Shown: piece after piece, positions 8 to 55,551 of the stretch
Layout: each line of letters starts with the position of its first letter
How positions within the stretch are numbered: position 1 is the stretch's first letter
Source of the DNA: Candidatus Magasanikiibacteriota bacterium
GTDB taxonomy: Bacteria; Patescibacteriota; Patescibacteriia; Magasanikbacterales; GWA2-37-8
Direction of reading: 5' to 3'
Assembly (NCBI GenBank): GCA_041666745.1
Contig: JBAYGI010000001.1
Location: 91,095 to 155,094 of the forward strand
Length of the DNA stretch: 64,000 nt
Notes under the pieces: generated by a model
Database searches by the model: none
The model's input: the letters and a program-made list of their open reading frames with translations, nothing else
What the model was told of the DNA's origin: nothing
Program-made: the position numbers and the translations under genes

Positions 8-400
8 GTGTATCAATATTTGGTAAAAATGAATATTCCGGTAAAATCCGAGATTATTTTTCTTGAATTGGAAAAAGCGCAAAAAAAGATTTTTGAAGAT
101 GGAGAAAAAGATGAAGGCGCGCGAATTTTACGGATTGTGCTTGAAAAAACCATCCAGAAAATTGCACAAAAAAATAGTATAAGTATTTTTAATAGTAAAC
201 TTAAGGAAGAGAAAATTGCAATATTGAATGACAAGCTCAAAGAAAGCAAAGTGTTCAATCAGGTAGTATGGGAAGAAAATAAAACATATTTAACTATTGG
301 CAATAATGCTTCGCATGGCGACTATAACCAATATGAAATAAAACACGTCGAAAATTTTTATCGGTATATCCAATCGCTACTAAGTGATTTTGGAATATAA
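8..400 (+). CDS. hypothetical protein, possibly DUF4145-like (often found beside restriction/helicase genes); N-terminus may be truncated by the window edge
   Basis: Complete ORF in track, ends 10 nt before the helicase-nuclease gene on the same strand. Weak resemblance only; no named motif recognised. Confidence 0.45.
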   Translation: MYQYLVKMNIPVKSEIIFLELEKAQKKIFEDGEKDEGARILRIVLEKTIQKIAQKNSISIFNSKLKEEKIAILNDKLKESKVFNQVVWEENKTYLTIGNNASHGDYNQYEIKHVENFYRYIQSLLSDFGI

Positions 401-3486: not shown

Positions 3487-3511
3487 GATTCCCGTTTTCA
3501 CGGGAATGACA
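3487..3511. repeat. hairpin-ATGACA motif copy a (gattcccgttttcacgggaATGACA)
   Basis: 6-bp stem tcccgt/acggga with loop tttc. ATG is the start of the PIF1-like gene. Confidence 0.7.
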
Positions 3512-4753
3512 AAAATCATGAACCAATCCCACGCCCTCAAAATTCTCAAATCCGGCGACAATGTTTTTCTTACCGGTTCCGCCGGTTCCGGTAAGACATT
3601 TTTGTTGAACCAATTTATTGACTATTTAAAAAGTAAAAAAATAAAAGTTGGGATAACCGCTTCCACCGGTATCGCCGCCACTCACTTGAACGGCAGGACT
3701 ATTCATTCTTGGTGCGGAATGGGGATTGCCAAAAAGATGAACAAAAAGCAACTTAAAAAAATATTAAGAAAGGAAGAGTTGTTTGAAAGAATAAGAAAAG
3801 CATCTGTTTTGATTATTGATGAAATATCCATGTTGGATGCCGATCGTTTGGATTTGGTGGACAAAATTTGCAAGGCGGTGAAAAATCCATTTTTTCCGTT
3901 TGGTGGAATTCAAATTGTTTTATGCGGAGATTTTTTTCAACTTCCTCCAGTAAGCAAAGATTCTCAATTTGCCTTTCATGCTTTTTCGTGGAAAAACTCC
4001 GGTTTCAAAGTTTGTTATTTGGACGAACAATTTCGTCAGGATGATGCAAACTTTTTAAATGTTTTAAATAAAATACGCGCCAATGAGGCGGGAGAAAAAG
4101 AAGTAAATATTTTAAAAAGCCGGCTATACGAGCCAGTCGCGCACGCGCCTATTTTGACAAAACTTTATACGCACAATATAAATGTGGATGCCTTAAATTA
4201 TTTTGAATTGTCAAAAATTTCGTTGGAAGAAAAAGCATACCAGGTTAAAGAGAATGGTCAAAAAGAACTGGTAGATTTTTTAAAAAAGAGTTTTCCGGCT
4301 GTCCAAGAATTAAAATTGAAAGTCGGCGCGGTGGTGATGTTTATAAAAAATAATTTTGACGCCGGTTATGTAAACGGCACACTTGGAGAAGTGGTCGCTT
4401 TTGATGCCGACGGCTATCCGGAAGTTAAAACAAAAAACAATGAAACAATCATTGCCACGCCGATTAGTTGGAATTTTGAAGAAGATGAAAAAGTTTTGGC
4501 AAGTATTCGACAGGTGCCGTTGCGGTTGGCATGGGCGATAACGGTGCACAAAAGCCAAGGGATGAGTTTGGATGCGGCGGAAATAGATTTGTCAAAATCG
4601 TTTGAACGGGGGATGGGCTATGTGGCTTTGTCGCGCGTGCGAACTTTGAACAGTATCCGTTTGATGGGTATAAACGAGATGGCTTTGAAAGTGGATGAGA
4701 CGGTTGTGAAAATGGATAGGGAATTTAAAAAGTTGTCGAAGAAAAATAGATAG
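3506..4753 (+). CDS. PIF1/RecD-like ATP-dependent DNA helicase (AAA_30)
   Basis: Walker A TGSAGSGKT, Walker B IIDEISM, QLPPV motif. Start ATG is embedded in the conserved hairpin-ATGACA motif at 3487-3511. Confidence 0.8.
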   Translation: MTKIMNQSHALKILKSGDNVFLTGSAGSGKTFLLNQFIDYLKSKKIKVGITASTGIAATHLNGRTIHSWCGMGIAKKMNKKQLKKILRKEELFERIRKASVLIIDEISMLDADRLDLVDKICKAVKNPFFPFGGIQIVLCGDFFQLPPVSKDSQFAFHAFSWKNSGFKVCYLDEQFRQDDANFLNVLNKIRANEAGEKEVNILKSRLYEPVAHAPILTKLYTHNINVDALNYFELSKISLEEKAYQVKENGQKELVDFLKKSFPAVQELKLKVGAVVMFIKNNFDAGYVNGTLGEVVAFDADGYPEVKTKNNETIIATPISWNFEEDEKVLASIRQVPLRLAWAITVHKSQGMSLDAAEIDLSKSFERGMGYVALSRVRTLNSIRLMGINEMALKVDETVVKMDREFKKLSKKNR

Positions 4754-5923: not shown

Positions 5924-8716
5924 ATGTCATTTTTAACCAAATTATTCGGCGATCCCAACATCAAAGCCGTCAAAGAAATAATGCCGATTATTGATAGTAT
6001 CAATGCGTTTGAACCGGAAATGCAGAAGTTGTCTTTGGAACAACTGAAAAATAAAACCGTTGAATTCAAAGAGCGACTAGCCAAAGGCGAAACTCTCGAC
6101 GATTTATTGCCCGAAGCATTCGCAGTCGTGCGTGAAACTTCCAAGCGGGTTACCGGCATGCGTCATTTTGATGTTCAGCTTATCGGTGGCGTTACTTTGC
6201 ATCGCGGACAAATTTCTGAAATGCGTACCGGTGAAGGTAAAACTTTGGTAGCGACTTTGCCGGTGTATCTAAACGCGCTGGCTGGCAAGGGTGTGCATTT
6301 GGTGACGGTCAATGATTATTTGGCCAAACGTGACGCGGTCTGGATGAGTCAAATTTATGACGCGCTCGGTTTGAGTGTTGGTATTATTCAACAGCTTTTG
6401 GTTTCATATAAATATAATCCAAACAAATTAAAAATTCTTGATGAAAATGGACAGGATGCCATGAGTGAAGGTGGATCGATAGACAAAGAACGCGACGCGA
6501 CCGGGGCGTACAAAGTTGAATATGAATATTTGGAAACTTGTTCTCGCAAAGAAGCCTATGCCTGCGATATTACTTATGGTACCAACAACGAATTTGGTTT
6601 TGACTATTTGCGCGACAACATGGTGGGTAGTCTGGAAGAAATGTCTCAGCGCCCATTTTATTTTGCTATCGTGGATGAGGTGGATTCGATTTTAATAGAT
6701 GAAGCGCGAACGCCGTTGATTATTTCCGCTCCGGCCGAAGAAGCGGCGGACATGTATTACAAATTTGCGGATATTGTGGCGCGAATGGAAATCGACGTGG
6801 ATTATAATGTTGATGAAAAAATGCGTTCATCCACTTTGACTGAAGCCGGTTTGAAAAAAGTGGAACAAGCCTTGAATGTAGAAAATATTTATGCCGAGGG
6901 TGGTATGACGATGGTGCATCACATCGAACAAGCGTTGCGCGCTCGAGCGCTTTTCAAACGCGATCGTGATTATGTGGTGGACAATGGTGAGGTGATTATC
7001 GTGGATGAATTTACCGGACGTAAAATGCCGGGGCGTCGTTATAGTGAAGGTTTGCATCAGGCTATCGAAGCGCAAGAGCATGTCAAAATTCAGCGCGAGA
7101 GTCAAACCATGGCGACGATTACTTTTCAAAATTATTTCCGTCTGTATGAAAAATTGGCGGGCATGACCGGTACTGCGGTGACTGAGGCGGAAGAATTTGC
7201 CAAGATTTATAAATTGGAGGTGGTAGTAATTCCAACCAATAAAAATAATTTGCGCAATGATCATCCGGATAGAATTTATAAAACTGAAGAAACAAAATAT
7301 CAGGCGATTGCCAAAACTGTCAAAGAATTACAACAAAAAGGACAGCCGGTTTTAATCGGCACAATTTCGGTAGAAAAAAATGAAGAACTCAGTTTGTATT
7401 TGGAACGTGAAGGAATTAAACACGAAATTTTGAATGCCAAAAATCATGAACGTGAAGGTGAAATTATCGCGCAAGCCGGTAGAGCGGGGGCGGTAACTTT
7501 GGCGACCAATATGGCCGGTCGCGGTGTGGATATTATTTTGGGAGGCAACCCGCCGGACAAAGATGCGGCCGACAAGGTGCGTTCAGTTGGTGGTTTGTTT
7601 GTGATTGGTACCGAACGTCACGAAAGTCGTCGTATCGACAATCAGTTGCGCGGTCGCGCGGCTCGTCAGGGAGATCCGGGAGAAACTCAGTTTTATCTTT
7701 CCACTCAAGACGATTTGATGCGGATTTTTGCCGGTGATCGAATTCGCAGTGTTATGCAAACTTTGCGTGTGCCGGATGATATGCCAATCGAACAACGTTC
7801 TATTACCAAAATTATTGAATCCGCTCAAAAAAAAGTGGAAGGTTTTCATTTTGATTCTCGTAAAAATTTACTTGAATATGACGATGTGTTGAATCGTCAT
7901 CGTGAAGTAGTATATGGAAAACGTCGTCAAGTTTTAGAATTATTTGATCAACAAAAAAATGACATTGCCACTGGCGATGTCATTCCGACCGCAGTGGAGG
8001 AATCCCTCAGCACTAAAACCCTCCAAACTCTAATTCTCGACATGATCGAAGCGGAAATTGAACAGGTAGTTTCATTTCATACCAACGCCGAAGATAAGCA
8101 CGAATGGAACATCCAAGAGATTGCCGAAGTAACAGCAACCATCTATCCGATATCCGATGAAGAAAAAAATAAAATTTTAAGTTTCGGTGAACACGGTGAA
8201 CAAAAACTGGAAGCAGTTACTGAGCGCACTCATATTATCGAATATTTGACTGAGTTGGCCAAAGAAAAATATCAGAAATTGTTGGTAGAAAAAATCGACA
8301 ATAAAGAAATGCAAATTGAAATGGAAAAACAGATTTTGTTGCGCTCGATGGATATACTTTGGGTTGATCATTTGGTGGCGGTAGATTATTTGCGCACCGG
8401 TATTGGTTTGCGTGGCTACGGTCAGCGTGATCCATTGGTGGAATACAAAAAAGAAACTTACCACATGTTCAATGAATTGCTTTCCGCGATGCAACATGAG
8501 GTGGTTTATGCTATTTTCAAAGTAACTTTGGGAATGCAAATGGCGCCAAGTATCATGAAAAAAAATAATTTGATTTTCAAAGGAGCCGGAGTGGAGGGTG
8601 GGGTAGTGGATATCAACACCAAAGTAAAAAACGAACAAGGAGAAAAAGTAGGTCGCAATGATCCGTGTCCGTGTGGGAGTGGGAAGAAGTATAAGAAGTG
8701 TCATGGGAATGGTTGA
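5924..8716 (+). CDS. secA: preprotein translocase ATPase SecA
   Basis: 930 aa, canonical SecA N-terminus and DEAD motor motifs, C-terminal zinc-binding tail CPCGSGKKYKKCHG. Followed by a perfect palindromic terminator at 8730-8760. Confidence 0.97.
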   Translation: MSFLTKLFGDPNIKAVKEIMPIIDSINAFEPEMQKLSLEQLKNKTVEFKERLAKGETLDDLLPEAFAVVRETSKRVTGMRHFDVQLIGGVTLHRGQISEMRTGEGKTLVATLPVYLNALAGKGVHLVTVNDYLAKRDAVWMSQIYDALGLSVGIIQQLLVSYKYNPNKLKILDENGQDAMSEGGSIDKERDATGAYKVEYEYLETCSRKEAYACDITYGTNNEFGFDYLRDNMVGSLEEMSQRPFYFAIVDEVDSILIDEARTPLIISAPAEEAADMYYKFADIVARMEIDVDYNVDEKMRSSTLTEAGLKKVEQALNVENIYAEGGMTMVHHIEQALRARALFKRDRDYVVDNGEVIIVDEFTGRKMPGRRYSEGLHQAIEAQEHVKIQRESQTMATITFQNYFRLYEKLAGMTGTAVTEAEEFAKIYKLEVVVIPTNKNNLRNDHPDRIYKTEETKYQAIAKTVKELQQKGQPVLIGTISVEKNEELSLYLEREGIKHEILNAKNHEREGEIIAQAGRAGAVTLATNMAGRGVDIILGGNPPDKDAADKVRSVGGLFVIGTERHESRRIDNQLRGRAARQGDPGETQFYLSTQDDLMRIFAGDRIRSVMQTLRVPDDMPIEQRSITKIIESAQKKVEGFHFDSRKNLLEYDDVLNRHREVVYGKRRQVLELFDQQKNDIATGDVIPTAVEESLSTKTLQTLILDMIEAEIEQVVSFHTNAEDKHEWNIQEIAEVTATIYPISDEEKNKILSFGEHGEQKLEAVTERTHIIEYLTELAKEKYQKLLVEKIDNKEMQIEMEKQILLRSMDILWVDHLVAVDYLRTGIGLRGYGQRDPLVEYKKETYHMFNELLSAMQHEVVYAIFKVTLGMQMAPSIMKKNNLIFKGAGVEGGVVDINTKVKNEQGEKVGRNDPCPCGSGKKYKKCHGNG

Positions 8717-8729
8717 TAAAAAATAATCA

Positions 8730-8762
8730 ACAAAAAAACATCGAATTTAATTTCGATGTTTT
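8730..8762 (+). terminator. rho-independent terminator of secA (perfect 11-bp palindrome plus T-run)
   Basis: acatcgaattt/aaattcgatgt followed by tttttaattt. Confidence 0.6.
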
Positions 8763-8872
8763 TTAATTTAAAGCGTTTAGATCACTCGCACAATCTGAAA
8801 ACAAATTTTATTTTCAAATTGCGCGGCGAGTGATCAACTTTCTATCCCCACCGCCTTTTGTCTTACCACTAG

Positions 8873-10189
8873 TCACAGACTACGGAGGAACTGTCGCGTG
8901 ACCGCAACAATGCGGTTTACGTCCATCTCCGTGTTGGCGTAGCCGAACGATGCTCGGATGGCACCGATCGGAACGTCACCACCAATGTGGCGACGCAGGT
9001 TGTCGATTGTGATCGCATCGTTACTGATGGTGCTGTTGTACAACGCCTTGAACGCATCGATCTTGTAACCGAAAACCTTCTCATTGACGCCGGGGTTGCA
9101 GAAACAGCCCGTCCGCACGAACACTGCCTGCTCATTCGCGTACCGTTCGAACACCCATGCGTCTACGATCTGCTGACCTCGTTTGACGCTGAAGGTGACA
9201 ATGTCGGTACCGCGTGGGCTGTGGATGATGATAGAATTGTCTCCTTCGTGCAGAGTCTGCAAACTATCATACAACTTCACTCCCAGCACGGTGGCGTGCT
9301 CGCAGATGTCGCCCAGACTCTCCATGAACTGGAGCCCGGGAACGACGGCCGGAATGTTGGCGAAGTTCAACGTCCCGTCTTCAAATCGGGCATAGCCCAA
9401 CGTTTCGGGTGCGTAGAAGTTCTCATCCGTGACGCTGACGAGCAGAATGGATCCGCCCGCGAACCAGCGTTTGTGGAGTTTCGCGTACGCGCTCCGCTTG
9501 ATAATCATACAGCCGACACCGGTTGGGTAACCGAACAGCTTGTAGAAGCTGATCGGAACGAAATCCGGTTTGACCTTTGAGAGATTCAAGCGTTTTCCAC
9601 CACAGTAGGCAGCCGCGTCCAAGAGGACGCTCCAACCGCACGACTGGGCATAGTTCACCCAGCTCAAGCTGTGGTGGATCCCGGAGTAGTTGGACTTCGC
9701 TGGGTAGGCGAAGAGTCTGTTCCCCATGGACCTCGGATAGGTCAACATGCGCGTCAGAGTTGCTTCATCCAGCGTCAGATCATCGCTGATCGGCGCATAC
9801 CGGACGATCGCACCCTGTCGTCTGGCATCCTCGCGGAGGCCGTTGACCGAGTTGTGGTTGTCGGCGGTGAGTAGGTACTCTCCACCTTCAAAAAGAAAAT
9901 GCTGCAGAATCCGGATCGCGGCCGTCGCTCCGGAGGTGAAAATCACTTCATACTCGTCGGCGTTGGCGTTGAAATATTGCAGAATGGCTGCTCGTGCTTG
10001 CGTAATACCCTGCATCGCCGTCGCCGACGGCTTGTGGTGGGAGTGCGGGTTGCCAAGCAGGGTGCTTTGCAAGTACCGGCTCCAGCCTTCGATGAGCGAG
10101 ATGGGGGGCAACGCTGCCCCCGTCCAGTCGGCGTAGACCTTACCCCCATTGAGTTGGGGGAATTGTCCGTTGAGCGAAGCTGAATTCAT
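8873..10189 (-). CDS. class V aminotransferase-fold protein resembling the molybdenum-cofactor sulfurase N-terminal / cysteine desulfurase-like domain; GC-rich
   Basis: Fold V PLP-enzyme pattern and VRTGCFCNPG motif recalled from MOCOS-type proteins. Likely true start is the ATG at 10187-10189 with an AGGAG RBS, so the track ORF looks N-extended. About 55% GC versus about 36% in flanks. Confidence 0.6.
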   Translation of the reverse strand: MNSASLNGQFPQLNGGKVYADWTGAALPPISLIEGWSRYLQSTLLGNPHSHHKPSATAMQGITQARAAILQYFNANADEYEVIFTSGATAAIRILQHFLFEGGEYLLTADNHNSVNGLREDARRQGAIVRYAPISDDLTLDEATLTRMLTYPRSMGNRLFAYPAKSNYSGIHHSLSWVNYAQSCGWSVLLDAAAYCGGKRLNLSKVKPDFVPISFYKLFGYPTGVGCMIIKRSAYAKLHKRWFAGGSILLVSVTDENFYAPETLGYARFEDGTLNFANIPAVVPGLQFMESLGDICEHATVLGVKLYDSLQTLHEGDNSIIIHSPRGTDIVTFSVKRGQQIVDAWVFERYANEQAVFVRTGCFCNPGVNEKVFGYKIDAFKALYNSTISNDAITIDNLRRHIGGDVPIGAIRASFGYANTEMDVNRIVAVTRQFLRSL

Positions 10190-10305
10190 GGCGTACTCCT
10201 TCTTTGTTTTTTGGTTGGGGGGTTGTAGAAATAAAAAGAACTTTCTCTCTCTATATATAACATAATACACAGAGAATGGATCATCTTATCACAATTAAAT
10301 GTTTT

Positions 10306-10335
10306 TTGTCACCCCCCCCCGCTCCAACCTTAATT
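10306..10335 (+). promoter_or_regulatory. candidate promoter containing a 9-nt poly-C tract (10312-10320) between a TTGTCA -35-like hexamer and a weak -10; possible slipped-strand switch
   Basis: ttgtca-C9-gctccaacc-ttaatt lies 80 nt upstream of the small peptide gene. It has the same poly-C-in-spacer architecture as the promoters at 40276-40305 and 40999-41027. Confidence 0.35.
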
Positions 10336-10414
10336 TGCATTTTATGTGCTATTGTTATAGGATAATTTCAGTGTCTATCTGCCAACCGGTTGATTTCCAA
10401 CCAACGGAGGGTAT

Positions 10415-10579
10415 ATGGACAATCTCGAACGAATCGTCGGGTTGCTCTTGGTCGTCGTTTGCTCATGCGTGGTAGTTCTCTGCTGGCGTAAGTTGCGGAA
10501 GATGGCCGGGGAGACAAGCGCGAACGACCGCCTGTACGGAAAGCTCAAGTTACGCTTTCCAAAATCAAGGCGTTCTTGA
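10415..10579 (+). CDS. small single-TM peptide (54 aa) with basic C-tail; not in ORF track (<60 aa)
   Basis: GGAGGG RBS 5 nt upstream of ATG. Hydrophobic core IVGLLLVVVCSCVVVLCW followed by RKLRK. Lies in the GC-rich island downstream of the poly-C tract. Confidence 0.3.
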   Translation: MDNLERIVGLLLVVVCSCVVVLCWRKLRKMAGETSANDRLYGKLKLRFPKSRRS

Positions 10580-11306
10580 CAAGAGGTGCTGTTTTGTGTT
10601 AACTTTTTATTACCTTCGTCCGTAGCTTCCGACGGATCCGTATGTACTTTAGGGGAAGTGCAACGGTAGATTGACTCGTTGTTTATCTTACAGAATTGTG
10701 TCATCGGCCGATGGCGCGAAATGTAGGGATACTTTCCAAACTCCGGCTTTAATAGGGTGGTATCCTGGCCAAGAAGGTCATGCACCTTGTCTGCAAAGGC
10801 AACTTGGAGGTGCTGTGGTTTACCTGCGAATGGTGAATCAAGGTCCGCGAGTCATCGTACGAAAACCTCTGGGGTTAGAAAACGCGTTACACGGAAGCAT
10901 TGGTCAGAAAAGGCGCGTTTGCCAACCAACTGAACGAAGAATCCTCGTGCATTAGTGCGAGAACCGCTCCTAGTTTAGGAGGGAGGCAGTTTCCAAGACC
11001 GCTCATCCCTCGCCATAATCGCAAAATATTTGTTGTTATGGCGAGAGCGGCCTTGTCCGATTAAAACACCTTGCATTTTGCGGGGTGTTTTGTATTTAGG
11101 TCATTGCATGCGCATCTTGACTTTTTTCCCATTTTGTAGTATTGTAATCCATTAGTTCTTTTTACAAAGTTGCAAGTGGGGATATTTACCTTACATTATA
11201 TCAATTAGGGTTTTTGTCCCCCCTTACGACTTCAACAACACGTACAGCACTGACAGGGGCGCACCAGGTAGGTGTGAGTGTTGTTCACTAGTTCGGGAGG
11301 AAACCC

Positions 11307-11969
11307 ATGTTCGTAATTCGCAAAGGGAACCAACTGTTCAACGCTCTCGGACTGCTCTACGGTGAAATCGTCATCGAAAGGCAGAGCCCGGTGCTCGTCT
11401 ACACCCAGGCGCATGCGATCCGGTTTTTGCTGCAGGCCGTCAAAGAGCAGGTCATCACGAAAGACGAAGCTGACGAGATCGCGCGGCAGATCGGTGACGC
11501 CGGTATTGCGGCAGATCGGCCCAAGGTCTTCGAGATCGTAGCTTCGGCTACTCTGGAAGATGGCTTCGTGCCGTCGTTCCAGTTCGTGATCTGCAAGGAG
11601 TGCACGTTCCCGATTGCTCACGGTTACGTACAGCACGTGGACGCTGACAACAAGAGCATGAGCGGCCAGGTTCGCAATCTCATCGACGGTCTGCAACTCG
11701 CATTTGAGATGTACGCCGACGGGGTTCACGTCCTCGACTGCGTCAACGTTCTCAAGCAGATGATCGAGGCCGATCTGCCCATCGACGAGGAGGCGGCGAA
11801 GGGGCGGTTCAGTTCTCTACCGGCAGACCAGCTTGCAAGGCTCGACGAGGAGATGTCGGCCATGACAAGGAAGATCAATGTTCCTGGATTCGGCGACGTC
11901 ACTGTGATGAAGATTCTGTTGCCGTCCGACATGACCGAGCTGATCGCCCTGCTCGACCTGCTCCGCTAG
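11307..11969 (+). CDS. hypothetical protein (220 aa), GC-rich island cargo
   Basis: GGGAGG RBS and codon usage unlike the host genes. A rho-independent terminator (ccgactcaattgggtcgg plus T-run) follows at about 12130-12165. Confidence 0.5.
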   Translation: MFVIRKGNQLFNALGLLYGEIVIERQSPVLVYTQAHAIRFLLQAVKEQVITKDEADEIARQIGDAGIAADRPKVFEIVASATLEDGFVPSFQFVICKECTFPIAHGYVQHVDADNKSMSGQVRNLIDGLQLAFEMYADGVHVLDCVNVLKQMIEADLPIDEEAAKGRFSSLPADQLARLDEEMSAMTRKINVPGFGDVTVMKILLPSDMTELIALLDLLR

Positions 11970-12185
11970 CCGCCCGGCCCAACTCGCGTCTGGCCAACGC
12001 AACCTCCTGCACGGAGGAAAACATCACAAAAGGCACCGTCTTCTAGTAGAAGATGGTGAAGGGGAGACAGTCGATCGTCCGTGCGCGATCGACTACTTCC
12101 AATGAATATAATGACTTGTATTTATTGAAAGGGAACCGACTCAATTGGGTCGGTTTTTTATATTTTACCGTTTTTGTTTATCCAC

Positions 12186-12214
12186 TTGCCAAAAATCGCA
12201 AAAAGGGGTAAAAT
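12186..12214 (+). promoter_or_regulatory. sigma70-like promoter upstream of secD (TTGCCA-17-TAAAAT)
   Basis: Hexamers with a 17-nt spacer about 45 nt upstream of the secD ATG. Confidence 0.4.
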
Positions 12215-12259: not shown

Positions 12260-14335
12260 ATGGCTAAGAATGCAAAACCGGTCGTCAGTTTATCACGATC
12301 TCAGATCAAATGGAGGGTATTGTGGATTGGAATTTTGTTAGTTGTTTGTCTTTTAATTGTAGCTCCAACTTATGCCAACAAGGGCGTTGATTGGGTTAAC
12401 AACAAAGCGAATTTAGGTTTGCCACGTTTGCCGGACAAAGGTTTTAATTTAGGTTTGGATTTGCAAGGTGGTGCGCATTTGGTTTATCAGGCAGATACAA
12501 AACAAGTTCCAGATGCCGATCGTGTGAACGCAGTTGAAGGTGTGCGTGATGTGATTGAACGTCGTGTGCGTGGTGGTTTGGGAGTTTCCGAACCATTGGT
12601 ACAAACTACCAAAGTTGGTGAGGATTTTCGTATCATCGTAGAATTGCCAGGCATAACAGATGTGAATCAAGCTATTAAAATGATTGGTGAAACTCCAGTA
12701 TTAGAATTCAAAGAAGAAAACAACGAACCGGCGCGTGAGTTGACAAAAGATGAACAAAAACAATTAGATACATTTAACAAAGAAGCCGAAAAAAATGCCA
12801 AGCTAGCTTTGAAAGAAGCAAATAGCGGTGCAGATTTTGCCAGTGTGGTTACCAAATATACTCAAGATGATAAAAGTAAAAACAATGGTGGTGACTTAGG
12901 TTTTATTACCAACAAAATTTATCCGGAAATTTTTGCTTGGGCCAGTAATCACAAAGATGGTGAAGTAAGTAAAGATATAGTAAAAAGTTTTGAAGGTTTA
13001 AATATCGTAAAAAGAATCGCTGAGCGTCAAGGTGAAAAACAAGTAGAGGCGGCTCATATTTTAATCTGCTACAAAGGAGCGGAACGTTGTGACAATCCTC
13101 TTTACACTCAAGAAGAAGCCAAAGCCAAAATTTTGGAATTAAAAAAACAAGCCAACATTAGTAATTTTGCAAATTTAGCCAAACAATTTTCCACTGAACC
13201 GAACGCCAAAATCAGTGGTGGTGATTTGGGGAAATTTGGTACCGGTCAAATGGTGCCTGAATTTGAAAAAGCAGTTTGGGATGCGCCGGTAGGAAGTATT
13301 TCTGATGTGATAGAAACTCAATTTGGTTATCATATTATTTATAAGAAAGGCGAAGATTTTGCCAAAGAATATCAGGTGGCGCGTGTGTTTATAAAAACAC
13401 AACAAAAAGGGGATATCGTTCCGCCGACCGAACAATGGAAAGCTACCGGATTGTCCGGTAAACAGTTGAAACGTGCGGAAGTAACTCAAGATTCTCGTTC
13501 CGGTCAGGTTCAAGTTAGTTTGAATTTTGATGAAAATGGCACAAAATTATTTGCAGATATCACTGGAAGAAATGTTGGTAAACCTGTCGCTATTTATTTG
13601 GATGGTCAACCAATCAGTATTCCAAAAGTAAACGAAGCGATTACCAGTGGTAGCGCGGTAATTTCCGGTGGATTTACTTTGGCTGAGGCCAAACAACTTT
13701 CTCAGAGATTAAATTCCGGAGCTTTGCCGGTACCGGTTGAATTGATCAGTCAACAAAAAGTAGATGCTACTTTGGGTGTTGATTCGTTGGCCAAAAGTTT
13801 TCATGCCGGTTTGATTGGTTTGCTTGGCGTGATGTTGTTTATGGTTATTTATTATCGTTTTCCTGGTTTGCTGTCGGTGTTCTCTTTGATAGTTTACGCC
13901 TTGCTCAGTATGGCCACCTTCAAATTATTGGGAGTGACTATGACATTATCCGGTATTGCCGGTTTCATATTGTCTATTGGTATGGCAGTGGATACGAATG
14001 TGTTGGTCTTTGAGCGTCTAAAAGAAGAATTACGTTCCGGTAAAAATTTACACTCGGCTTCGGAAGAATCATTCCGTCGCTCTTGGCCGTCTATTCGCGA
14101 TGGTCATATCGCCACTTTGGTGAGTTGTGTATTTTTGGTCTGGTTTGGTACCGGTTTCGTTCAAGGTTTTGCGGTGACTTTGGCCATTGGTGTGTTGTTC
14201 AGTTTGTTTACCGCCATTGTGGCCACGCGCGCCATGTCACGTTTGGTATTTAATTGGTTTGACGAAAAAGGCAACTTCTTGTTTTTGGGATATACCAAAT
14301 CCGACGAAACTTCTTCTGAAGTAATTAATAAATAA
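12260..14335 (+). CDS. secD: protein-export membrane protein SecD with tandem parvulin-type (PpiC) peptidyl-prolyl isomerase domains inserted in the periplasmic P1 head
   Basis: N-terminal TM plus GLDLQGGAHLVY, and a C-terminal six-TM SecD core. The insert of about 250 aa carries two PpiC signatures (GGDLGFI... and GGDLGKF...FGYHIIYK). The protein is 691 aa, against roughly 400-620 for typical SecD. Confidence 0.88.
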   Translation: MAKNAKPVVSLSRSQIKWRVLWIGILLVVCLLIVAPTYANKGVDWVNNKANLGLPRLPDKGFNLGLDLQGGAHLVYQADTKQVPDADRVNAVEGVRDVIERRVRGGLGVSEPLVQTTKVGEDFRIIVELPGITDVNQAIKMIGETPVLEFKEENNEPARELTKDEQKQLDTFNKEAEKNAKLALKEANSGADFASVVTKYTQDDKSKNNGGDLGFITNKIYPEIFAWASNHKDGEVSKDIVKSFEGLNIVKRIAERQGEKQVEAAHILICYKGAERCDNPLYTQEEAKAKILELKKQANISNFANLAKQFSTEPNAKISGGDLGKFGTGQMVPEFEKAVWDAPVGSISDVIETQFGYHIIYKKGEDFAKEYQVARVFIKTQQKGDIVPPTEQWKATGLSGKQLKRAEVTQDSRSGQVQVSLNFDENGTKLFADITGRNVGKPVAIYLDGQPISIPKVNEAITSGSAVISGGFTLAEAKQLSQRLNSGALPVPVELISQQKVDATLGVDSLAKSFHAGLIGLLGVMLFMVIYYRFPGLLSVFSLIVYALLSMATFKLLGVTMTLSGIAGFILSIGMAVDTNVLVFERLKEELRSGKNLHSASEESFRRSWPSIRDGHIATLVSCVFLVWFGTGFVQGFAVTLAIGVLFSLFTAIVATRAMSRLVFNWFDEKGNFLFLGYTKSDETSSEVINK

Positions 14336-14340
14336 TTTGT

Positions 14341-15258
14341 ATGAATATTCCTTTTGTAAAGTATTCTAAATTTCTCTTGACAGTTAGTGCGGTGGTGACG
14401 ATTATCAGTTTAGCCTCATTATTTAATTGGGGATTAAAACCGGGTATAGATTTTACCGGTGGTTCATTGCTCGAAATTAGTTTTAGTAAAGTTCGCCCGG
14501 ATAATCAAACCATTGAAAATGCTTTTACTGAACTTGGTCACAAAAATATCGTGATTCAAAAAACCGGAGAAAAAGGGTTGATTGTTCGAACGGCTTTTTT
14601 ACCGGAAGATGAACATCAAAGTGTCTTAAAAGGTTTACGCACACAGTTTGAAAAAGACGGCAACACAGTACGTGAAGATCAATTTCAAACAATTGGCGCG
14701 GCCGTTAGCAAGCAATTGCGCACACGTTCGGTTTGGGCGGTGTTTTTGGTAGTCATTAGTATTATTGCTTTCGTGGCTTATGCTTTCCGTACAGTTTCTC
14801 AACCGGTAGCCAGTTGGAAATATGGTGTGACCGCGATTATTGCGGCCGCTCATGATGTGTTGTTGGTATCGGGTATTTTTGCTTTCTTGGGACATTACAA
14901 TAATATCGAAGTGGATATTGGTTTTGTGGTAGCATTGTTAACGGTGCTGGGCTATTCAGTGCAAGATACGATTGTGGTGTATGATCGTATTCGTGAAAAT
15001 TTGTTACGCCGACGCAATGTTAGTTTCAGAGAGATGGTGGATATCGGTTTGAATGAAACTTTGATGCGTTCTATAAATACTACTTTGATTACTTTGATTC
15101 CACTTTCCGCTTTGTATTTCTTGGGCGGTATTACAATCAAAAATTTCGCGTTGGCATTGCTCATCGGTATCGCTAGTGGTGCTTATTCTTCGATTTTTGT
15201 GGCCAGTCCATTGTTGGCTTATGTAGATAAATGGCAGAGAAATAAAACTACAAAATAA
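14341..15258 (+). CDS. secF: protein-export membrane protein SecF
   Basis: GIDFTGGSLLEISF motif and six-TM SecF architecture, immediately downstream of secD. Confidence 0.9.
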   Translation: MNIPFVKYSKFLLTVSAVVTIISLASLFNWGLKPGIDFTGGSLLEISFSKVRPDNQTIENAFTELGHKNIVIQKTGEKGLIVRTAFLPEDEHQSVLKGLRTQFEKDGNTVREDQFQTIGAAVSKQLRTRSVWAVFLVVISIIAFVAYAFRTVSQPVASWKYGVTAIIAAAHDVLLVSGIFAFLGHYNNIEVDIGFVVALLTVLGYSVQDTIVVYDRIRENLLRRRNVSFREMVDIGLNETLMRSINTTLITLIPLSALYFLGGITIKNFALALLIGIASGAYSSIFVASPLLAYVDKWQRNKTTK

Positions 15259-15541: not shown

Positions 15542-16978
15542 ATGGATCCGTTTACTTTTTCGTCCACTTTTGGCTTTACGATCAATTGGGAATTTTGGTC
15601 ATGGGTTTTTTCTCAACCAACTGCCGATTTGATCAACTATTTATTCGCCATTATTGGCTGGGTGGTTTTAGCTTTAATTTCTGTGAGCTTAAGCTCGCAG
15701 TTGTTGGCGTTGTATCGGGGTAGAAAGGCGATGTCTAATTGGCAATGGGTGTTGTTGGCGGTGGATGTGCCACCATTATATATTCAAACCCCAAAAGCGG
15801 TAGAACAAATTTTTGCTCATTTGAGTGGGGCGAAGGTAGGCATTCGTTTGTCCGAAAAATATTGGATCGGCAAGCGACAGAAAAATTTTAGTTTTGAAAT
15901 TATTTCCATTGAGGGATATATTCAGTTTTTGGTTCGCACTGAATTGGCTTATCGGGATTTGGTGGAGGCGGCAGTGTATGCTCAATATCCGGAAGCCGAA
16001 ATTACCGAGGTGGAGGATTATGTAGATCTCATTCCCAAAACTTATCCCAACGAAACCCATCACATGTTTGGGGCGGAATTCAAATTGTCCGATGTCGACG
16101 CGTATCCGATTCGCACTTATACCAGTTTTGAATATAAAATTAGTAAAGATGAAGTGTTTAGTGATCCGATGGCGGCTATTTTGGAAAATTTTTCACGCAT
16201 TGGTCACGGTGAACATTTTTGGTTGCAGATTATTATTGAGCCGGTTGGCAATGATTGGAAAGCCAAAGGTATTGAATTGGTAAAAGATATTATTGCCCAA
16301 AAAGTTGGTAAAAAATCTCCTAGTTTTTTTGGAGAAATGATAGCGATGATCGGAAATATTCCGATGGCGCTTACCAAAGAATTGTTGAGAAATTTACAGA
16401 ATACGGAATATGAACCGGTCGAGGTAAAAAAAGAAACACCTCCCAAATTGACCGATGTTTCCCCTGGAGGAAAAAATACGATTGAAGCGATCGAAGATAA
16501 GATTGCCAAGCTAGGTTTCAAAACCAAAATGCGAGCTTTGTATATTGCCAGAGATGAAGTGTTTAATCCGGGGCGTTGTATGGATGGATTTGTCGGCGCG
16601 CTCAATCAGTTTCATATCCAAAGTCGCAATGCTATTGTTCCGCGTTTTATTACCAAAACACATTTTTTATTTTTTAATAAAGCTCGAGAAATCATGGTGC
16701 AAAATAAATTTTTCAGAGCTTTTGCCGGTAGAAAAATTAAGGTAGGTGGTACCCCATATATTTTAAATATTGAGGAGTTGGCGACGGTGTGGCATTTCCC
16801 ATTACCATTTGTAAAGACACCGCTCATCCAAAAGGCTGGTGCCAAACGTGGCGAGCCACCAATGAATTTACCGATAGAAGCCGACGCCGGGCCACTACGA
16901 GCCAAGGTGAGGGCTGTAGAGCCGTCTGGGCCACTAGTGGATGTACCCGACGAACCGGAAGAAGTATTATACGGATAA
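15542..16978 (+). CDS. membrane-anchored protein paralogous to the N-terminal ~400-aa domain of the 853-aa ATPase at 27661-30222 (no ATPase domain); acidic C-tail
   Basis: Shared blocks AQYPEAEITEVEDY / AQYPHAEILVENDY and ELATVWHFPLP...PPMNLP / ELAGLWHLPIP...PPVNMP. N-terminal TM segments. Confidence 0.6.
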   Translation: MDPFTFSSTFGFTINWEFWSWVFSQPTADLINYLFAIIGWVVLALISVSLSSQLLALYRGRKAMSNWQWVLLAVDVPPLYIQTPKAVEQIFAHLSGAKVGIRLSEKYWIGKRQKNFSFEIISIEGYIQFLVRTELAYRDLVEAAVYAQYPEAEITEVEDYVDLIPKTYPNETHHMFGAEFKLSDVDAYPIRTYTSFEYKISKDEVFSDPMAAILENFSRIGHGEHFWLQIIIEPVGNDWKAKGIELVKDIIAQKVGKKSPSFFGEMIAMIGNIPMALTKELLRNLQNTEYEPVEVKKETPPKLTDVSPGGKNTIEAIEDKIAKLGFKTKMRALYIARDEVFNPGRCMDGFVGALNQFHIQSRNAIVPRFITKTHFLFFNKAREIMVQNKFFRAFAGRKIKVGGTPYILNIEELATVWHFPLPFVKTPLIQKAGAKRGEPPMNLPIEADAGPLRAKVRAVEPSGPLVDVPDEPEEVLYG

Positions 16979-55092: not shown

Positions 55093-55151
55093 CCCGACCG
55101 AGTGTCGCAACGAGTGGAGGGATCCCTCGGCTTCGCTCGGAATGACAGCTG

Positions 55152-55551
55152 TGGAGGTGGCGAGAGTTGAACTCGCGTCCAGATAATTTTGAATATACCT
55201 TCTACATGCTTAGTCCACTTAGTATTTAACTATAGAGATAATAGGTGAACGAAACTCTCTATGAGCGAGCCAGATTTACTTTCGGATAAAAATATCTGAC
55301 AATATTTTTAACCTACATCTCGTAAGTGACACCGCGATGTGCTACGAAATCTCACACAGACGATGGGAAGCGACAATTAAGCCGCAACCGGAGCAAAGTT
55401 GCAATAACTTCCGCCGAAGGCGTTGGCTAGAGCAATTTTAGCTTTTGAAAATAAGTTTGCACTTATAATTTGTTTTAGGGATTTATGAGGTCCAAAACAT
55501 CCTCAGCATGCGAGTGTACGCAGAAACTTCTGTCAAAAGCACGGCACCCCC
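55152..55551 (-). ncRNA. ssrA: tmRNA (ssrA), about 400 nt, 3' CCA not encoded; putative tag ANLFSKAKIALANAFGGSYCNFAPVAA
   Basis: 5' GGGGGTG pairs with 3' CACCTCC. The 3' tRNA-like end ctaagcatgtag...GGACGCGAGTTCAACTCTCGCCACCTCCA is nearly identical to the E. coli tmRNA 3' region. The resume context TAAGT-GCAAAC resembles E. coli TAGTC-GCAAAC, and the reading frame ends GCGGCTTAA. The gene starts 2 nt after the smpB stop. Confidence 0.85.

What the first reader, a model, noticed from the sequence alone, without database searches (positions are those of the whole stretch)
12260..14335. SecD with tandem parvulin-type PPIase domains inserted into its periplasmic head
The SecD core (N-terminal TM, P1 head, C-terminal six-TM bundle) is intact. 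About 250 extra residues in the P1 region carry two PpiC/parvulin signatures (GGDLGFI...; GGDLGKFGTGQMVPEFEKAV...FGYHIIYK). This would fuse a PrsA/SurA-like foldase directly to the translocon accessory subunit that pulls substrates out of SecYEG, which is an unusual and elegant coupling.
Basis: partly seen in the sequence, partly recalled or inferred. Interest (0 to 1): 0.6.

Follow-up and report, generated by a model that had tools for sequence, protein, structure and literature searches.

The report
SecD with built-in nested parvulin foldase
In this candidate-phyla-radiation bacterium, the SecD subunit that pulls secreted proteins out of the export channel has two parvulin-type folding-enzyme domains built into its outward-facing part, one nested inside the other; this design is widespread in the group but I found no paper describing it.

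Summary
ORF 12260-14335 (+) encodes a 691-aa SecD from a Candidatus Magasanikbacteria MAG. TM1, P1 base, P1 head and the TM bundle are intact, and SecF follows 5 nt downstream. About 230 residues (152-384) sit exactly between Pfam SecD_1st and SecDF_P1_head. They contain two parvulin modules, each above Pfam threshold on its own.

It is not a frameshift artefact. All 120 listed close homologs, from independent assemblies, share the architecture. So do 73 of the 150 best 50%-identity cluster representatives.

- The domains are nested, not simply tandem. Module 2 (258-368) is a canonical parvulin with a complete, conserved catalytic set. It sits at the tip of a beta-hairpin of module 1.
- Module 1 (160-257 plus strand 369-379) is circularly permuted and has lost both catalytic histidines.
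- The insert lies at the P1 base/head junction, not inside the head.

Related lineages carry a single permuted parvulin that keeps both histidines. One close subclade has deleted module 2.

The most likely function is a translocon-tethered foldase/holdase, a covalent counterpart of the PpiD-SecDF and Mycoplasma PrsA-like/SecDF partnerships. That function is inferred, not shown. I rate it a new variant of known kinds.

The parts
12260..14335 (+). secD ORF, 691 aa, carrying the parvulin insert
   Evidence: ORF list. TIGR01129 scores 369 bits against a cut-off of 244.4. Identical to P0001, a Candidatus Magasanikbacteria MAG protein annotated only as SecD.
12305..12373 (+). N-terminal transmembrane helix TM1 (about aa 16-38). 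The Lys/Arg-rich N-terminus faces the cytoplasm, so the P1 region is extracytoplasmic.
   Evidence: AF2 helix 13-34. Hydrophobic stretch IKWRVLWIGILLVVCLLIVAPTY read from the sequence. The topology is inferred.
12434..12721 (+). Sec_GG motif plus SecD_1st, the N-terminal part of the P1 base (aa 59-154). It ends with strand PVLEFKE.
   Evidence: Pfam PF07549 at 59-80 and PF21760 at 93-154. Aligns to T. thermophilus SecDF residues 32-116.
12737..13030 (+). Parvulin module 1 (aa 160-257), running from alpha1 to beta4. It lacks an N-terminal beta1. Asn248 replaces the beta4 catalytic His. It is present in every homolog examined.
   Evidence: PF00639 55 bits, matching profile positions 11-96 only. 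pLDDT about 87-92. Asn248 in 108/120; Asn173, Asp203 and Gly211 invariant. The nearest solved relative is the PpiD parvulin domain 2KGJ.
13031..13363 (+). Parvulin module 2 (aa 258-368), canonical beta1-to-beta4 order. It carries His266, Asp322, Met331, Phe335 and His358, plus the conserved pair Cys270/Cys277.
   Evidence: PF13616 90.9 bits and PF00639 78.4 bits, profile 1-95. Pin1 PPIase domain superposes at rmsd 2.2-2.4 A. His266, His358 and Phe335 in 109/109; Met331 in 106/109. Codons verified.
13364..13396 (+). Trailing strand EYQVARVFIKT (aa 369-379). It is the displaced beta1 of module 1, with Arg375 at the catalytic-His position.
   Evidence: AF2 gives continuous strands 246-269 and 356-379. 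In the natural module-2-less variant P0016 it forms a hairpin with module 1 beta4. Homologs P0122 and L008 keep His here (NVSHIF, KASHIF). Single-type homologs have xxSHILx at this position.
13442..13732 (+). SecDF P1 head subdomain (aa 395-491), the substrate-binding swinging head
   Evidence: PF22599 100 bits. Aligns to T. thermophilus SecDF from residue 148.
13736..14251 (+). C-terminal transmembrane bundle (aa 493-664), including the essential TM4 aspartate Asp578 (nt 13991-13993)
   Evidence: PF02355 and AF2 helices 507-664. Asp578 aligns to T. thermophilus Asp340, is invariant in the family, and is named essential in PMC5974789.
14341..15258 (+). secF, 305 aa, starting 5 nt after the secD stop. 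It keeps Asp209 and Arg243, equivalent to T. thermophilus Asp637 and Arg671.
   Evidence: TIGR00966 269 bits against a cut-off of 160. Alignment to 3AQP. Codons verified.
12130..12214 (+). Terminator-like hairpin (12130-12159) followed by a promoter-like site TTGCCA-17-TAAAAT (12186-12214), upstream of secD
   Evidence: Consensus scan. These are pattern matches only.
5924..8716 (+). secA. In relatives it lies directly upstream of secD, giving a conserved secA-secD-secF order.
   Evidence: Pfam SecA domains. SecA ORFs end just upstream of secD in 9 related loci and in L081/L082.

Best explanation
The gene encodes a working SecD, the proton-driven partner of SecF that grips and pulls polypeptides emerging from SecYEG. 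Its extracytoplasmic P1 domain carries a two-module parvulin unit at the junction between the P1 base and the swinging P1 head.

Anatomy:
- Module 1 is a circularly permuted parvulin. Its central beta1 strand comes after beta4 instead of before alpha1. It has lost both catalytic histidines but remains strongly conserved.
- Module 2 is a canonical, catalytically complete PpiC-type parvulin. It is inserted at the tip of module 1's beta4-beta1' hairpin and joined to it by a long two-stranded ribbon.

Proposed mechanism (inferred). As the P1 head captures and lifts an unfolded chain leaving SecYEG, the adjacent parvulin unit meets that chain. Module 2 catalyses prolyl cis/trans isomerisation. Module 1 acts as a non-catalytic scaffold or peptide-binding module. 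The protein would then do in one polypeptide what PrsA does in monoderms, what PpiD does together with SecDF in E. coli and Vibrio, and what the PrsA-like dome proteins do on SecDF in Mycoplasma.

What is shown here: the gene is real, the domain identities, the insertion site, the permutation and nesting, the residue conservation, the intact motor residues, and the wide distribution in Patescibacteria.

What is inferred: PPIase activity, action on Sec substrates, and any coupling to P1 head motion.
For: Architecture and significance.

Real gene:
- All 120 listed homologs (63-100% identity; NCBI, JGI, ENA and Logan assemblies) carry Rotamase plus SecD Pfam domains.
- 73 of 150 representatives at 50% identity carry a parvulin module, and in 72 of them it lies between the SecD N part and the head.
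- Junction-spanning loci, each followed by secF, occur in MAGs named Magasanikbacteria, Uhrbacteria, Falkowbacteria, Komeilibacteria, Moraniibacteriota and Parcubacteria, over GC 0.29-0.64.

Insertion site: T. thermophilus SecDF residues 116 and 148 flank the insert.

Nesting and permutation:
- The AF2 model (insert pLDDT 87-94) has continuous 24-residue strands 246-269 and 356-379.
- Natural short variants delete exactly residues about 262-369, a complete beta1-to-beta4 domain, and keep module 1 plus the trailing strand.
- AF2 of such a variant gives a beta4-turn-beta1' hairpin, 246-259 and 262-273, at pLDDT 88-89.
- Fifteen single-insert homologs have the order GGDLG, then G[YFW]H, then xxHIL.
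- Moving that last strand to the front raises PF00639 from 87.9 to 92.6 bits and from 85.8 to 91.4 bits. It also extends the match to profile position 1. Reversed-strand controls do not change.
- The conservation pattern pairs His266 with His358 (109/109 each) and Asn248 with Arg375 (108/120 and 112/120).

Motor intact: SecD Asp578, SecF Asp209 and SecF Arg243 match the essential T. thermophilus D340, D637 and R671.

Functional precedent:
- The P1-head cavity contacts precursor proteins (PMC5974789).
- In Mycoplasma, PrsA-like PPIC proteins assemble with SecDF and SecYEG, and substrate density touches the active PPIC domain (10.1101/2025.04.25.650208; 10.1101/2024.09.05.611430).
Against: - No activity or substrate data exist for any member of this family.
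- A close subclade (11 clusters of about 581-598 aa) has deleted the only catalytically complete module and keeps just the histidine-less module 1. Prolyl isomerase activity is therefore dispensable at least there, and the universally retained part is the non-catalytic one.
- The relative 3-D placement of the parvulin unit, the P1 head and SecYEG is not established. pTM is 0.45-0.52, and model coordinates could not be inspected.
- Nesting in the window protein itself rests on predicted models and comparative sequence logic. The sequence de-permutation test on the degenerate module 1 gained only about 1 bit.
- Whether these genomes lack a stand-alone PrsA/PpiD could not be tested. I only established that there is none in this 64-kb window and none within 10 kb of secD in a relative.
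Confidence: 0.6

Rival explanations
1. The parvulin unit acts as a holdase or peptide-binding chaperone only. Prolyl isomerisation is irrelevant. The conserved, histidine-less module 1 is the functional core and extends the substrate-binding surface of the P1 head, much as the inactive parvulin domains of PpiD and SurA P1 do. Module 2 is an optional accessory.
For: - Module 1 is present in every homolog and has invariant Asn173, Asp203 and Gly211 despite losing both catalytic His.
- Module 2 is deleted in 11 close clusters while synteny is otherwise unchanged.
- Module 1's nearest solved and curated relatives are the PpiD parvulin domain 2KGJ and NCBIfam PRK10788 PpiD.
Against: - Where module 2 is present, its catalytic set is under very strong constraint: His266, His358 and Phe335 in 109/109 and Met331 in 106/109.
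- The single-insert lineages keep both histidines in their only, permuted parvulin. Catalysis therefore seems to be the retained feature across most of the family.
Confidence: 0.22
2. The insert is mainly a mechanical or regulatory element of the SecDF motor. A rigid two-domain strut at the base/head junction would tune or gate the swing of the P1 head, or dock SecD onto SecYEG, YidC or the cell wall. It would have no direct action on substrates.
For: - The insert sits exactly at the base/head crossover that must move during the F/I transitions.
- The two modules are joined by a long, confident beta-ribbon, which suggests a rigid unit.
- This site tolerates unrelated inserts in other SecDs. 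E. coli SecD's head starts at about residue 319 against 148 in Thermus, and some representatives carry non-parvulin inserts of 85-189 residues there.
Against: A purely structural role would not explain retention of the complete parvulin catalytic and substrate-pocket residues in module 2 and in the single-type inserts.
Confidence: 0.1
3. The fusion is an artefact: a frameshift, a mis-assembly, or a parvulin gene wrongly joined to secD.
For: None found. The only reason to consider it is that the window comes from a metagenome-assembled genome.
Against: - The parvulin modules are flanked on both sides, in frame, by the two halves of the SecD P1 domain.
- The same architecture and length recur in more than 100 independent assemblies at 63-100% identity.
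- It also recurs in distant lineages at 35-50% identity, each with secF downstream.
Confidence: 0.01
4. The surface-exposed parvulin unit serves the episymbiotic lifestyle rather than general secretion. For example, it could bind or remodel host or cell-wall proteins, with SecD merely acting as a membrane anchor.
For: Patescibacteria are inferred to be largely host-associated, and they expose P1 to the outside (general knowledge). No specific result here supports this reading.
Against: - The conserved secA-secD-secF operon context and the intact motor residues tie the protein to the Sec pathway.
- The insert sits next to the substrate-binding head rather than on a distal stalk.
Confidence: 0.04

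Closest known systems
SecD/SecDF of Thermus thermophilus and Deinococcus radiodurans (PDB 3AQP, 5YHF, 5XAN; RND superfamily, TIGR01129)
   Same: TM1, P1 base, P1 head and the TM2-6 bundle are all present, along with the essential TM4 Asp and an adjacent SecF carrying the essential Asp and Arg. These structures are the top sequence and fold matches.
   Different: About 230 residues forming two parvulin modules replace the roughly 30-residue connector between P1 base and P1 head. No solved SecD has such an insert.
PpiD (with YfgM) of E. coli and Vibrio
   Same: PpiD is a membrane-anchored periplasmic chaperone with an inactive parvulin domain. It sits at the SecYEG exit, contacts SecD's periplasmic domain and cooperates with SecDF (PMC9643414). 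Module 1's closest solved and curated relative is the PpiD parvulin.
   Different: PpiD is a separate protein with its own TM anchor and a SurA/trigger-factor-like chaperone domain. No such chaperone domain is detected here. Here the parvulin is covalently part of SecD, it is permuted, and it is accompanied by a catalytically complete second module.
PrsA foldase lipoprotein of Bacillus/Listeria/Staphylococcus, and the PrsA-like Mdp/Mpn444 dome complex of Mycoplasma pneumoniae
   Same: These are extracytoplasmic PpiC-type parvulins held at the outer face of the membrane of an organism without an outer membrane, acting on chains that leave the Sec translocon. In Mycoplasma the PPIC proteins physically assemble with SecDF. 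Module 2's best solved matches are PrsA and PpiC.
   Different: PrsA and the Mdp proteins are lipoproteins whose parvulin sits within an N+C chaperone domain, and their association with SecDF is non-covalent. Here there is no lipobox and no chaperone domain, and the SecD P1 domain is the scaffold.
SurA (PDB 1M5Y)
   Same: SurA has two consecutive parvulin domains, the first inactive and the second active. One phmmer alignment spans both modules (query 172-360 to SurA 172-358).
   Different: In SurA, P1 and P2 are both in canonical strand order and are embedded in an N/C chaperone core. SurA is soluble, periplasmic and specific to diderms. Here module 1 is permuted and module 2 is nested inside it.

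Membership tests
SecD (protein translocase subunit; TIGR01129, RND superfamily) | Scores above the curated equivalog-domain threshold | tested here: met
   TIGR01129 scores 369 bits against a cut-off of 244.4. The match falls in two stretches split by the insert.
SecD (protein translocase subunit; TIGR01129, RND superfamily) | Architecture of TM1, large extracytoplasmic P1 (base plus head), then a five-helix C-terminal bundle | tested here: met
   Pfam Sec_GG, SecD_1st, SecDF_P1_head and SecD_SecF_C occur in order. The AF2 secondary structure agrees. Foldseek top hits are SecDF structures.
SecD (protein translocase subunit; TIGR01129, RND superfamily) | Essential proton-relay residues: TM4 Asp in SecD, and TM10 Asp and TM11 Arg in SecF (T. 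thermophilus D340, D637, R671) | tested here: met
   SecD Asp578, SecF Asp209 and SecF Arg243 align to them. The residues are named essential in PMC5974789. Asp578 is invariant in 91 homologs.
SecD (protein translocase subunit; TIGR01129, RND superfamily) | Adjacent or fused SecF partner | tested here: met
   secF at 14341-15258 scores 269 bits on TIGR00966 against a cut-off of 160. secF follows secD in all related loci examined.
SecD (protein translocase subunit; TIGR01129, RND superfamily) | PMF-dependent stimulation of protein export | not testable with these tools
   This needs a biochemical or genetic assay.
Parvulin / PpiC-type PPIase domain (PF00639, PF13616): module 2, aa 258-368 | Profile match above the gathering score over the whole domain, with canonical beta-alpha3-beta-alpha-beta2 order | tested here: met
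   PF00639 78.4 bits over profile 1-95 and PF13616 90.9 bits. DSSP element order in the model fits. The Pin1 PPIase domain superposes at rmsd 2.2-2.4 A with target-normalised TM-score 0.77-0.78.
Parvulin / PpiC-type PPIase domain (PF00639, PF13616): module 2, aa 258-368 | Catalytic and substrate-pocket residues: two His, Asp/Cys after GG, and Met and Phe of the proline pocket | tested here: met
   His266, Asp322, Met331, Phe335 and His358 are present. In homologs, His, His and Phe are 109/109 each, Met is 106/109, and position 322 is Asp 76, Glu 12, Ser 8, Asn 4. Assignment of these positions to Pin1/Par10 residues rests on my own knowledge of the family.
Parvulin / PpiC-type PPIase domain (PF00639, PF13616): module 2, aa 258-368 | Measured prolyl cis/trans isomerase activity | not testable with these tools
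   This needs an enzyme assay.
Parvulin / PpiC-type PPIase domain: module 1, aa 160-257 plus 369-379 | Profile match above the gathering score | tested here: met
   PF00639 scores 55.2 bits against a cut-off of 21.7, but only over profile positions 11-96.
Parvulin / PpiC-type PPIase domain: module 1, aa 160-257 plus 369-379 | Canonical strand order, with beta1 N-terminal to alpha1 | tested here: not met
   There is no beta1 before alpha1. The equivalent strand lies C-terminal, at 369-379. Evidence: AF2 strands; the hairpin in the natural short variant; His retained on this strand in P0122 and L008; and a positive de-permutation test on single-type homologs. The same test on the window's own module 1 gained only about 1 bit.
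Parvulin / PpiC-type PPIase domain: module 1, aa 160-257 plus 369-379 | Catalytic histidine pair | tested here: not met
   Asn248 (108/120) and Arg375 (112/120) occupy the two His positions.
PrsA / SurA / PpiD-type chaperone-PPIases | Trigger-factor/SurA-like N(+C) chaperone domain flanking the parvulin | tested here: not met
   No SurA_N, trigger-factor or related Pfam hit at E <= 0.01. The flanks are SecD P1 segments.
PrsA / SurA / PpiD-type chaperone-PPIases | Own anchoring or targeting: a lipobox (PrsA), a single N-terminal TM (PpiD) or a soluble periplasmic form (SurA) | tested here: not met
   The parvulin unit is internal to a six-TM SecD polypeptide.

The most novel reading that the evidence does not exclude
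Patescibacteria have fused the folding catalyst to the pulling motor. A circularly permuted parvulin, a topology I found no report of for this fold, is integrated at the hinge of SecD's P1 domain. It has since been elaborated by nesting, duplication and degeneration. It would serve as the lineage's principal extracytoplasmic foldase in place of PrsA/PpiD. The proton-driven swing of the P1 head would physically hand each emerging segment to the PPIase site. This would be a natural 'Rosetta-stone' proof that parvulin chaperones work at SecDF, and a minimal single-chain system for studying how translocation and folding are coupled.
Probability: 0.35. Interest if true: 0.75.

Novelty: new variant of a known kind. 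Interest (0 to 1): 0.6.

Why it matters
How chains leaving SecYEG are handed to folding factors is an active question. Relevant work includes PpiD/YfgM-SecDF cooperation in E. coli and Vibrio, SurA contacts with the holotranslocon, and the 2024-2026 Mycoplasma 'dome' complex of PrsA-like PPIC proteins on SecDF.

A natural covalent SecD-parvulin fusion adds three things:
- It is conserved across many Patescibacteria lineages, so it gives independent evolutionary evidence that parvulins act at SecD's P1 domain.
- It marks the base/head junction as the relevant site.
- It offers a compact one-polypeptide system for structural work and single-molecule study.

It also supplies natural experiments: forms with a single active permuted domain, nested active-plus-inactive forms, and forms with only the inactive domain.

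The permuted, nested parvulin is of interest for protein-fold evolution. I found no report of such a topology.

For genome annotation, thousands of database entries are labelled only 'protein translocase subunit SecD', which hides a probable foldase.

Tried and rejected
- De-permutation Pfam test on the window's own module 1. The Rotamase_3 and Rotamase_2 alignments extended over the transplanted strand, but the score rose only about 1 bit. This is inconclusive, because the strand has lost its His. The same test was clear on single-type homologs.
- The listing of cluster members for taxonomy of divergent representatives. It returned no organism names.
- Foldseek against AFDB50 to obtain UniProt names and organisms. 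The library was not available.
- The Tsukazaki 2011 paper by PMC id was not held. I used the 2018 open-access review instead.
- Frameshift or mis-assembly was rejected on conservation.
- Record titles suggested occurrence outside Patescibacteria ('uncultured Gammaproteobacteria', 'Binatia', 'Lysobacteraceae'). I treat these as unreliable labels. The 'Lysobacteraceae' contig has 30% GC. The 'Gammaproteobacteria' loci cluster with Magasanikbacteria in the SecD-core tree and share 35-51% identity across the insert. The 'Binatia' locus (64% GC) remains unverified.
- The SecD-core NJ tree is rough and has no support values. I used it only as a hint that the insert is old and has been repeatedly remodelled.
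- I could not test whether these genomes lack a stand-alone PrsA/PpiD. There is none in the window and none within 10 kb of secD in a relative.
- Seven full-text searches for prior descriptions found none. The library covers only open-access papers and bioRxiv.
Full report
OBSERVATION

A single ORF occupies 12260..14335 on the + strand and encodes 691 aa. Pfam places the following domains in order:
- Sec_GG at 59-80
- SecD_1st at 93-154
- two Rotamase stretches
- SecDF_P1_head at 395-491
- SecD_SecF_C at 493-654

NCBIfam TIGR01129 (secD) scores 369 bits against a cut-off of 244.4. When each parvulin repeat is scanned alone, both pass the curated thresholds by a wide margin. The first scores 55.2 bits on PF00639. 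The second scores 90.9 bits on PF13616 and 78.4 bits on PF00639.

secF starts 5 nt after the secD stop. A terminator-like hairpin and a promoter-like site precede secD.

The protein is identical to a database entry from a Candidatus Magasanikbacteria MAG. That entry is annotated only as 'protein translocase subunit SecD'.

NOT AN ARTEFACT

All 120 listed homologs (63-100% identity) carry both Rotamase and SecD Pfam domains. They come from NCBI, JGI, ENA and Logan assemblies.

An exhaustive HMMER search of representatives at 50% identity returned 150 best hits. Of these, 73 have a parvulin module, and in 72 it lies between the SecD N-terminal part and the head. The one exception is a truncated fragment.

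GC content ranged from 0.29 to 0.64, and secF followed secD in each.

A few records carry other names. The 'Lysobacteraceae' contig has 30% GC. The 'uncultured Gammaproteobacteria' loci group with Magasanikbacteria in the core tree. I treat these labels as unreliable. The 'Binatia' locus (64% GC) is unverified.

WHERE THE INSERT SITS

Against T. thermophilus SecDF (3AQP), residues 61-151 align to 32-116 and residues 385-659 align to 148-421. About 230 residues therefore replace a connector of about 30 residues at the transition from the P1 base to the P1 head. This is the boundary between Pfam SecD_1st and SecDF_P1_head.

The site appears tolerant of insertions. E. coli SecD's head begins near residue 319. 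Some representatives carry non-parvulin inserts of 85-189 residues there.

The motor is intact:
- SecD Asp578 matches T. thermophilus D340.
- SecF Asp209 matches D637.
- SecF Arg243 matches R671.
These are the three residues that the SecDF review names as essential. Asp578 is invariant in 91 homologs.

ANATOMY OF THE INSERT

Module 2 (258-368) is a canonical parvulin in beta1-to-beta4 order.
- It carries AAH266IL, GGD322LG, M331VPEF335 and FGYH358II.
- In homologs, His266, His358 and Phe335 are each 109/109 and Met331 is 106/109.
- A Cys270/Cys277 pair is also 109/109.
- In the AF2 model the Pin1 PPIase domain superposes at 2.2-2.4 A.

Module 1 (160-257) matches the Rotamase profile only from position 11, so it lacks beta1.
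- Asn248 occupies the beta4 histidine position.
- Asn173, Asp203 and Gly211 are invariant, and Trp227 is nearly invariant.

After module 2 comes the strand EYQVARVFIKT (369-379).

FOUR LINES OF EVIDENCE FOR NESTING

These lines show that 369-379 is module 1's displaced beta1 and that module 2 is nested in the beta4-beta1' hairpin.

(i) The AF2 model (insert pLDDT 87-94) has two continuous 24-residue strands, 246-269 and 356-379. They run from one module into the other.

(ii) Eleven close clusters of 581-598 aa have deleted exactly residues about 262-369, a complete beta1-to-beta4 domain. They replaced it with a short Ser/Thr linker and retain module 1 and the trailing strand. The locus is otherwise syntenic.

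(iii) AF2 of one such natural variant (P0016) gives strand 246-259, a two-residue turn and strand 262-273. This is a hairpin at pLDDT 88-89.

(iv) The conservation pattern pairs His266 with His358, and Asn248 with Arg375. Two tandem-type homologs still have His on the trailing strand (NVSHIF, KASHIF).

In lineages with a single insert of about 560-625 aa, the permutation is visible in the sequence itself. The order is GGDLG, then G[YFW]HII (beta4), then a linker, then xxSHILx (beta1), and both histidines are kept. This was seen in 15 cases.

Moving that strand to the front raised PF00639 from 87.9 to 92.6 bits for P0132 and from 85.8 to 91.4 bits for P0146. It also extended the match to profile position 1. 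Reversed-strand controls were unchanged. The same test on the window's degenerate module 1 gained only about 1 bit.

Other variants exist:
- SecDF-fused forms of about 1,000-1,100 aa.
- Forms with inserts of 330-470 residues that contain further degenerate repeats.

A rough NJ tree of SecD cores places insert-bearing proteins mainly in two blocks, with a few insert-poor forms inside them. That is compatible with an old acquisition and repeated remodelling, but the tree has no support values.

MECHANISM (INFERRED)

The SecDF P1 head has an amphiphilic cavity that contacts precursor proteins. It swings between the F and I forms under proton flow (PMC5974789).

Parvulin chaperones are already known to work at this place:
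- PpiD contacts SecD's periplasmic domain and cooperates with SecDF late in translocation (PMC9643414).
- In Mycoplasma pneumoniae, PrsA-like lipoproteins with PPIC domains crosslink to SecD. They form a dome with SecDF and SecYEG, and substrate density touches the one catalytically conserved PPIC domain.

The patescibacterial protein looks like a covalent, minimal version of these partnerships. An active parvulin (module 2, or the single permuted domain in other lineages) is held next to the substrate-gripping head. A conserved non-catalytic parvulin (module 1) serves as scaffold and perhaps as a peptide-binding surface. Its nearest solved relative is PpiD's inactive parvulin.

The main caveat is the subclade that has lost module 2. 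It shows that isomerase activity can be dispensed with, and it keeps a holdase-only reading alive.

The 3-D position of the unit relative to the head and SecYEG is not established. pTM is 0.45-0.52, and model coordinates could not be inspected.

COMPARISON WITH KNOWN FAMILIES AND NOVELTY

The protein is a bona fide SecD, and module 2 is a bona fide parvulin by every feature testable here.

It is not a PrsA, SurA or PpiD family member. It has no SurA/trigger-factor-like chaperone domain and no separate anchor.

Seven full-text searches found no description of a SecD-parvulin fusion or of a circularly permuted parvulin. No solved SecD carries such an insert. The paper library is limited to open-access papers and bioRxiv. 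The architecture is also visible in precomputed Pfam annotations.

I therefore rate this a new variant of known kinds, not a new kind.

VERDICT

- The domains are nested, not tandem.
- Only one module is catalytically complete.
- The insert sits at the base/head junction.
- The design is common in its lineage.

Interest is 0.6. Specialists in protein export would find a natural SecD-foldase fusion and a permuted parvulin noteworthy and experimentally useful. The components and the general principle are known, and function remains untested.

Noticed in passing
window 8750-12100: A GC-rich segment (0.48-0.61, against 0.35-0.42 for its surroundings) lies between secA and secD. It contains a class-V aminotransferase gene on the minus strand (8873-10270) and an ORF with no Pfam hit (11307-11969). 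In relatives secA ends just upstream of secD, or a different 283-aa ORF occupies the gap. This looks like a foreign insertion into a variable secA-secD spacer.
   Followed up: partly
window 13067-13069 and 13088-13090 (Cys270, Cys277): Two cysteines in the beta1-alpha1 loop of parvulin module 2 (HILICYKGAERCDNP) are present in 109/109 close homologs that have the module. More distant lineages (HILISYxGAERA) lack them. They could form an extracytoplasmic disulfide, which is untested.
   Followed up: partly
window 55151-55551 (-): A tmRNA gene with an unusually long predicted tag peptide, ANLFSKAKIALANAFGGSYCNFAPVAA (27 aa).
   Followed up: no
window 15542-16978 (+): A 478-aa ORF downstream of secF has no Pfam hit in my scan. 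Its 477-aa counterpart in the syntenic loci L081/L082 is recorded as DUF8128 and keeps the same position after secF. It may be a conserved, uncharacterised neighbour of the sec operon.
   Followed up: no
P0159, P0166, P0171, P0172, P0179, P0181, P0182, P0254 (other lineages; not in the window): SecD homologs of about 775-940 aa carry inserts of 330-470 residues at the same site. Pfam recognises only one canonical parvulin in most of them. The extra 150-200 residues look like further, highly degenerate parvulin-like repeats.
   Followed up: partly
L003, L004, L006, L013, L014, L016, L017, L009 (genome contigs records): Public MAG records titled 'uncultured Gammaproteobacteria', 'Lysobacteraceae' (contig GC 0.30) and 'Candidatus Binatia' encode patescibacterial-type SecD-parvulin fusions. 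Their taxonomic labels are probably wrong, or the contigs are mis-binned.
   Followed up: partly
window 410-2782 and 3506-4753 (+): Two helicase genes lie upstream of secA: one ResIII/DEAD-type of 790 aa and one PIF1-like of 415 aa. Their context was not examined.
   Followed up: no
module 1 trailing strand, Arg375 (window 13382-13384): The His-to-Arg replacement at the first catalytic-His position parallels a substitution reported for the PPIC domain of Mycoplasma Mdp444, where PrsA His141 corresponds to Arg234. That paper still regards the domain as catalytically conserved. Module 1 may therefore not be entirely inert.
   Followed up: no
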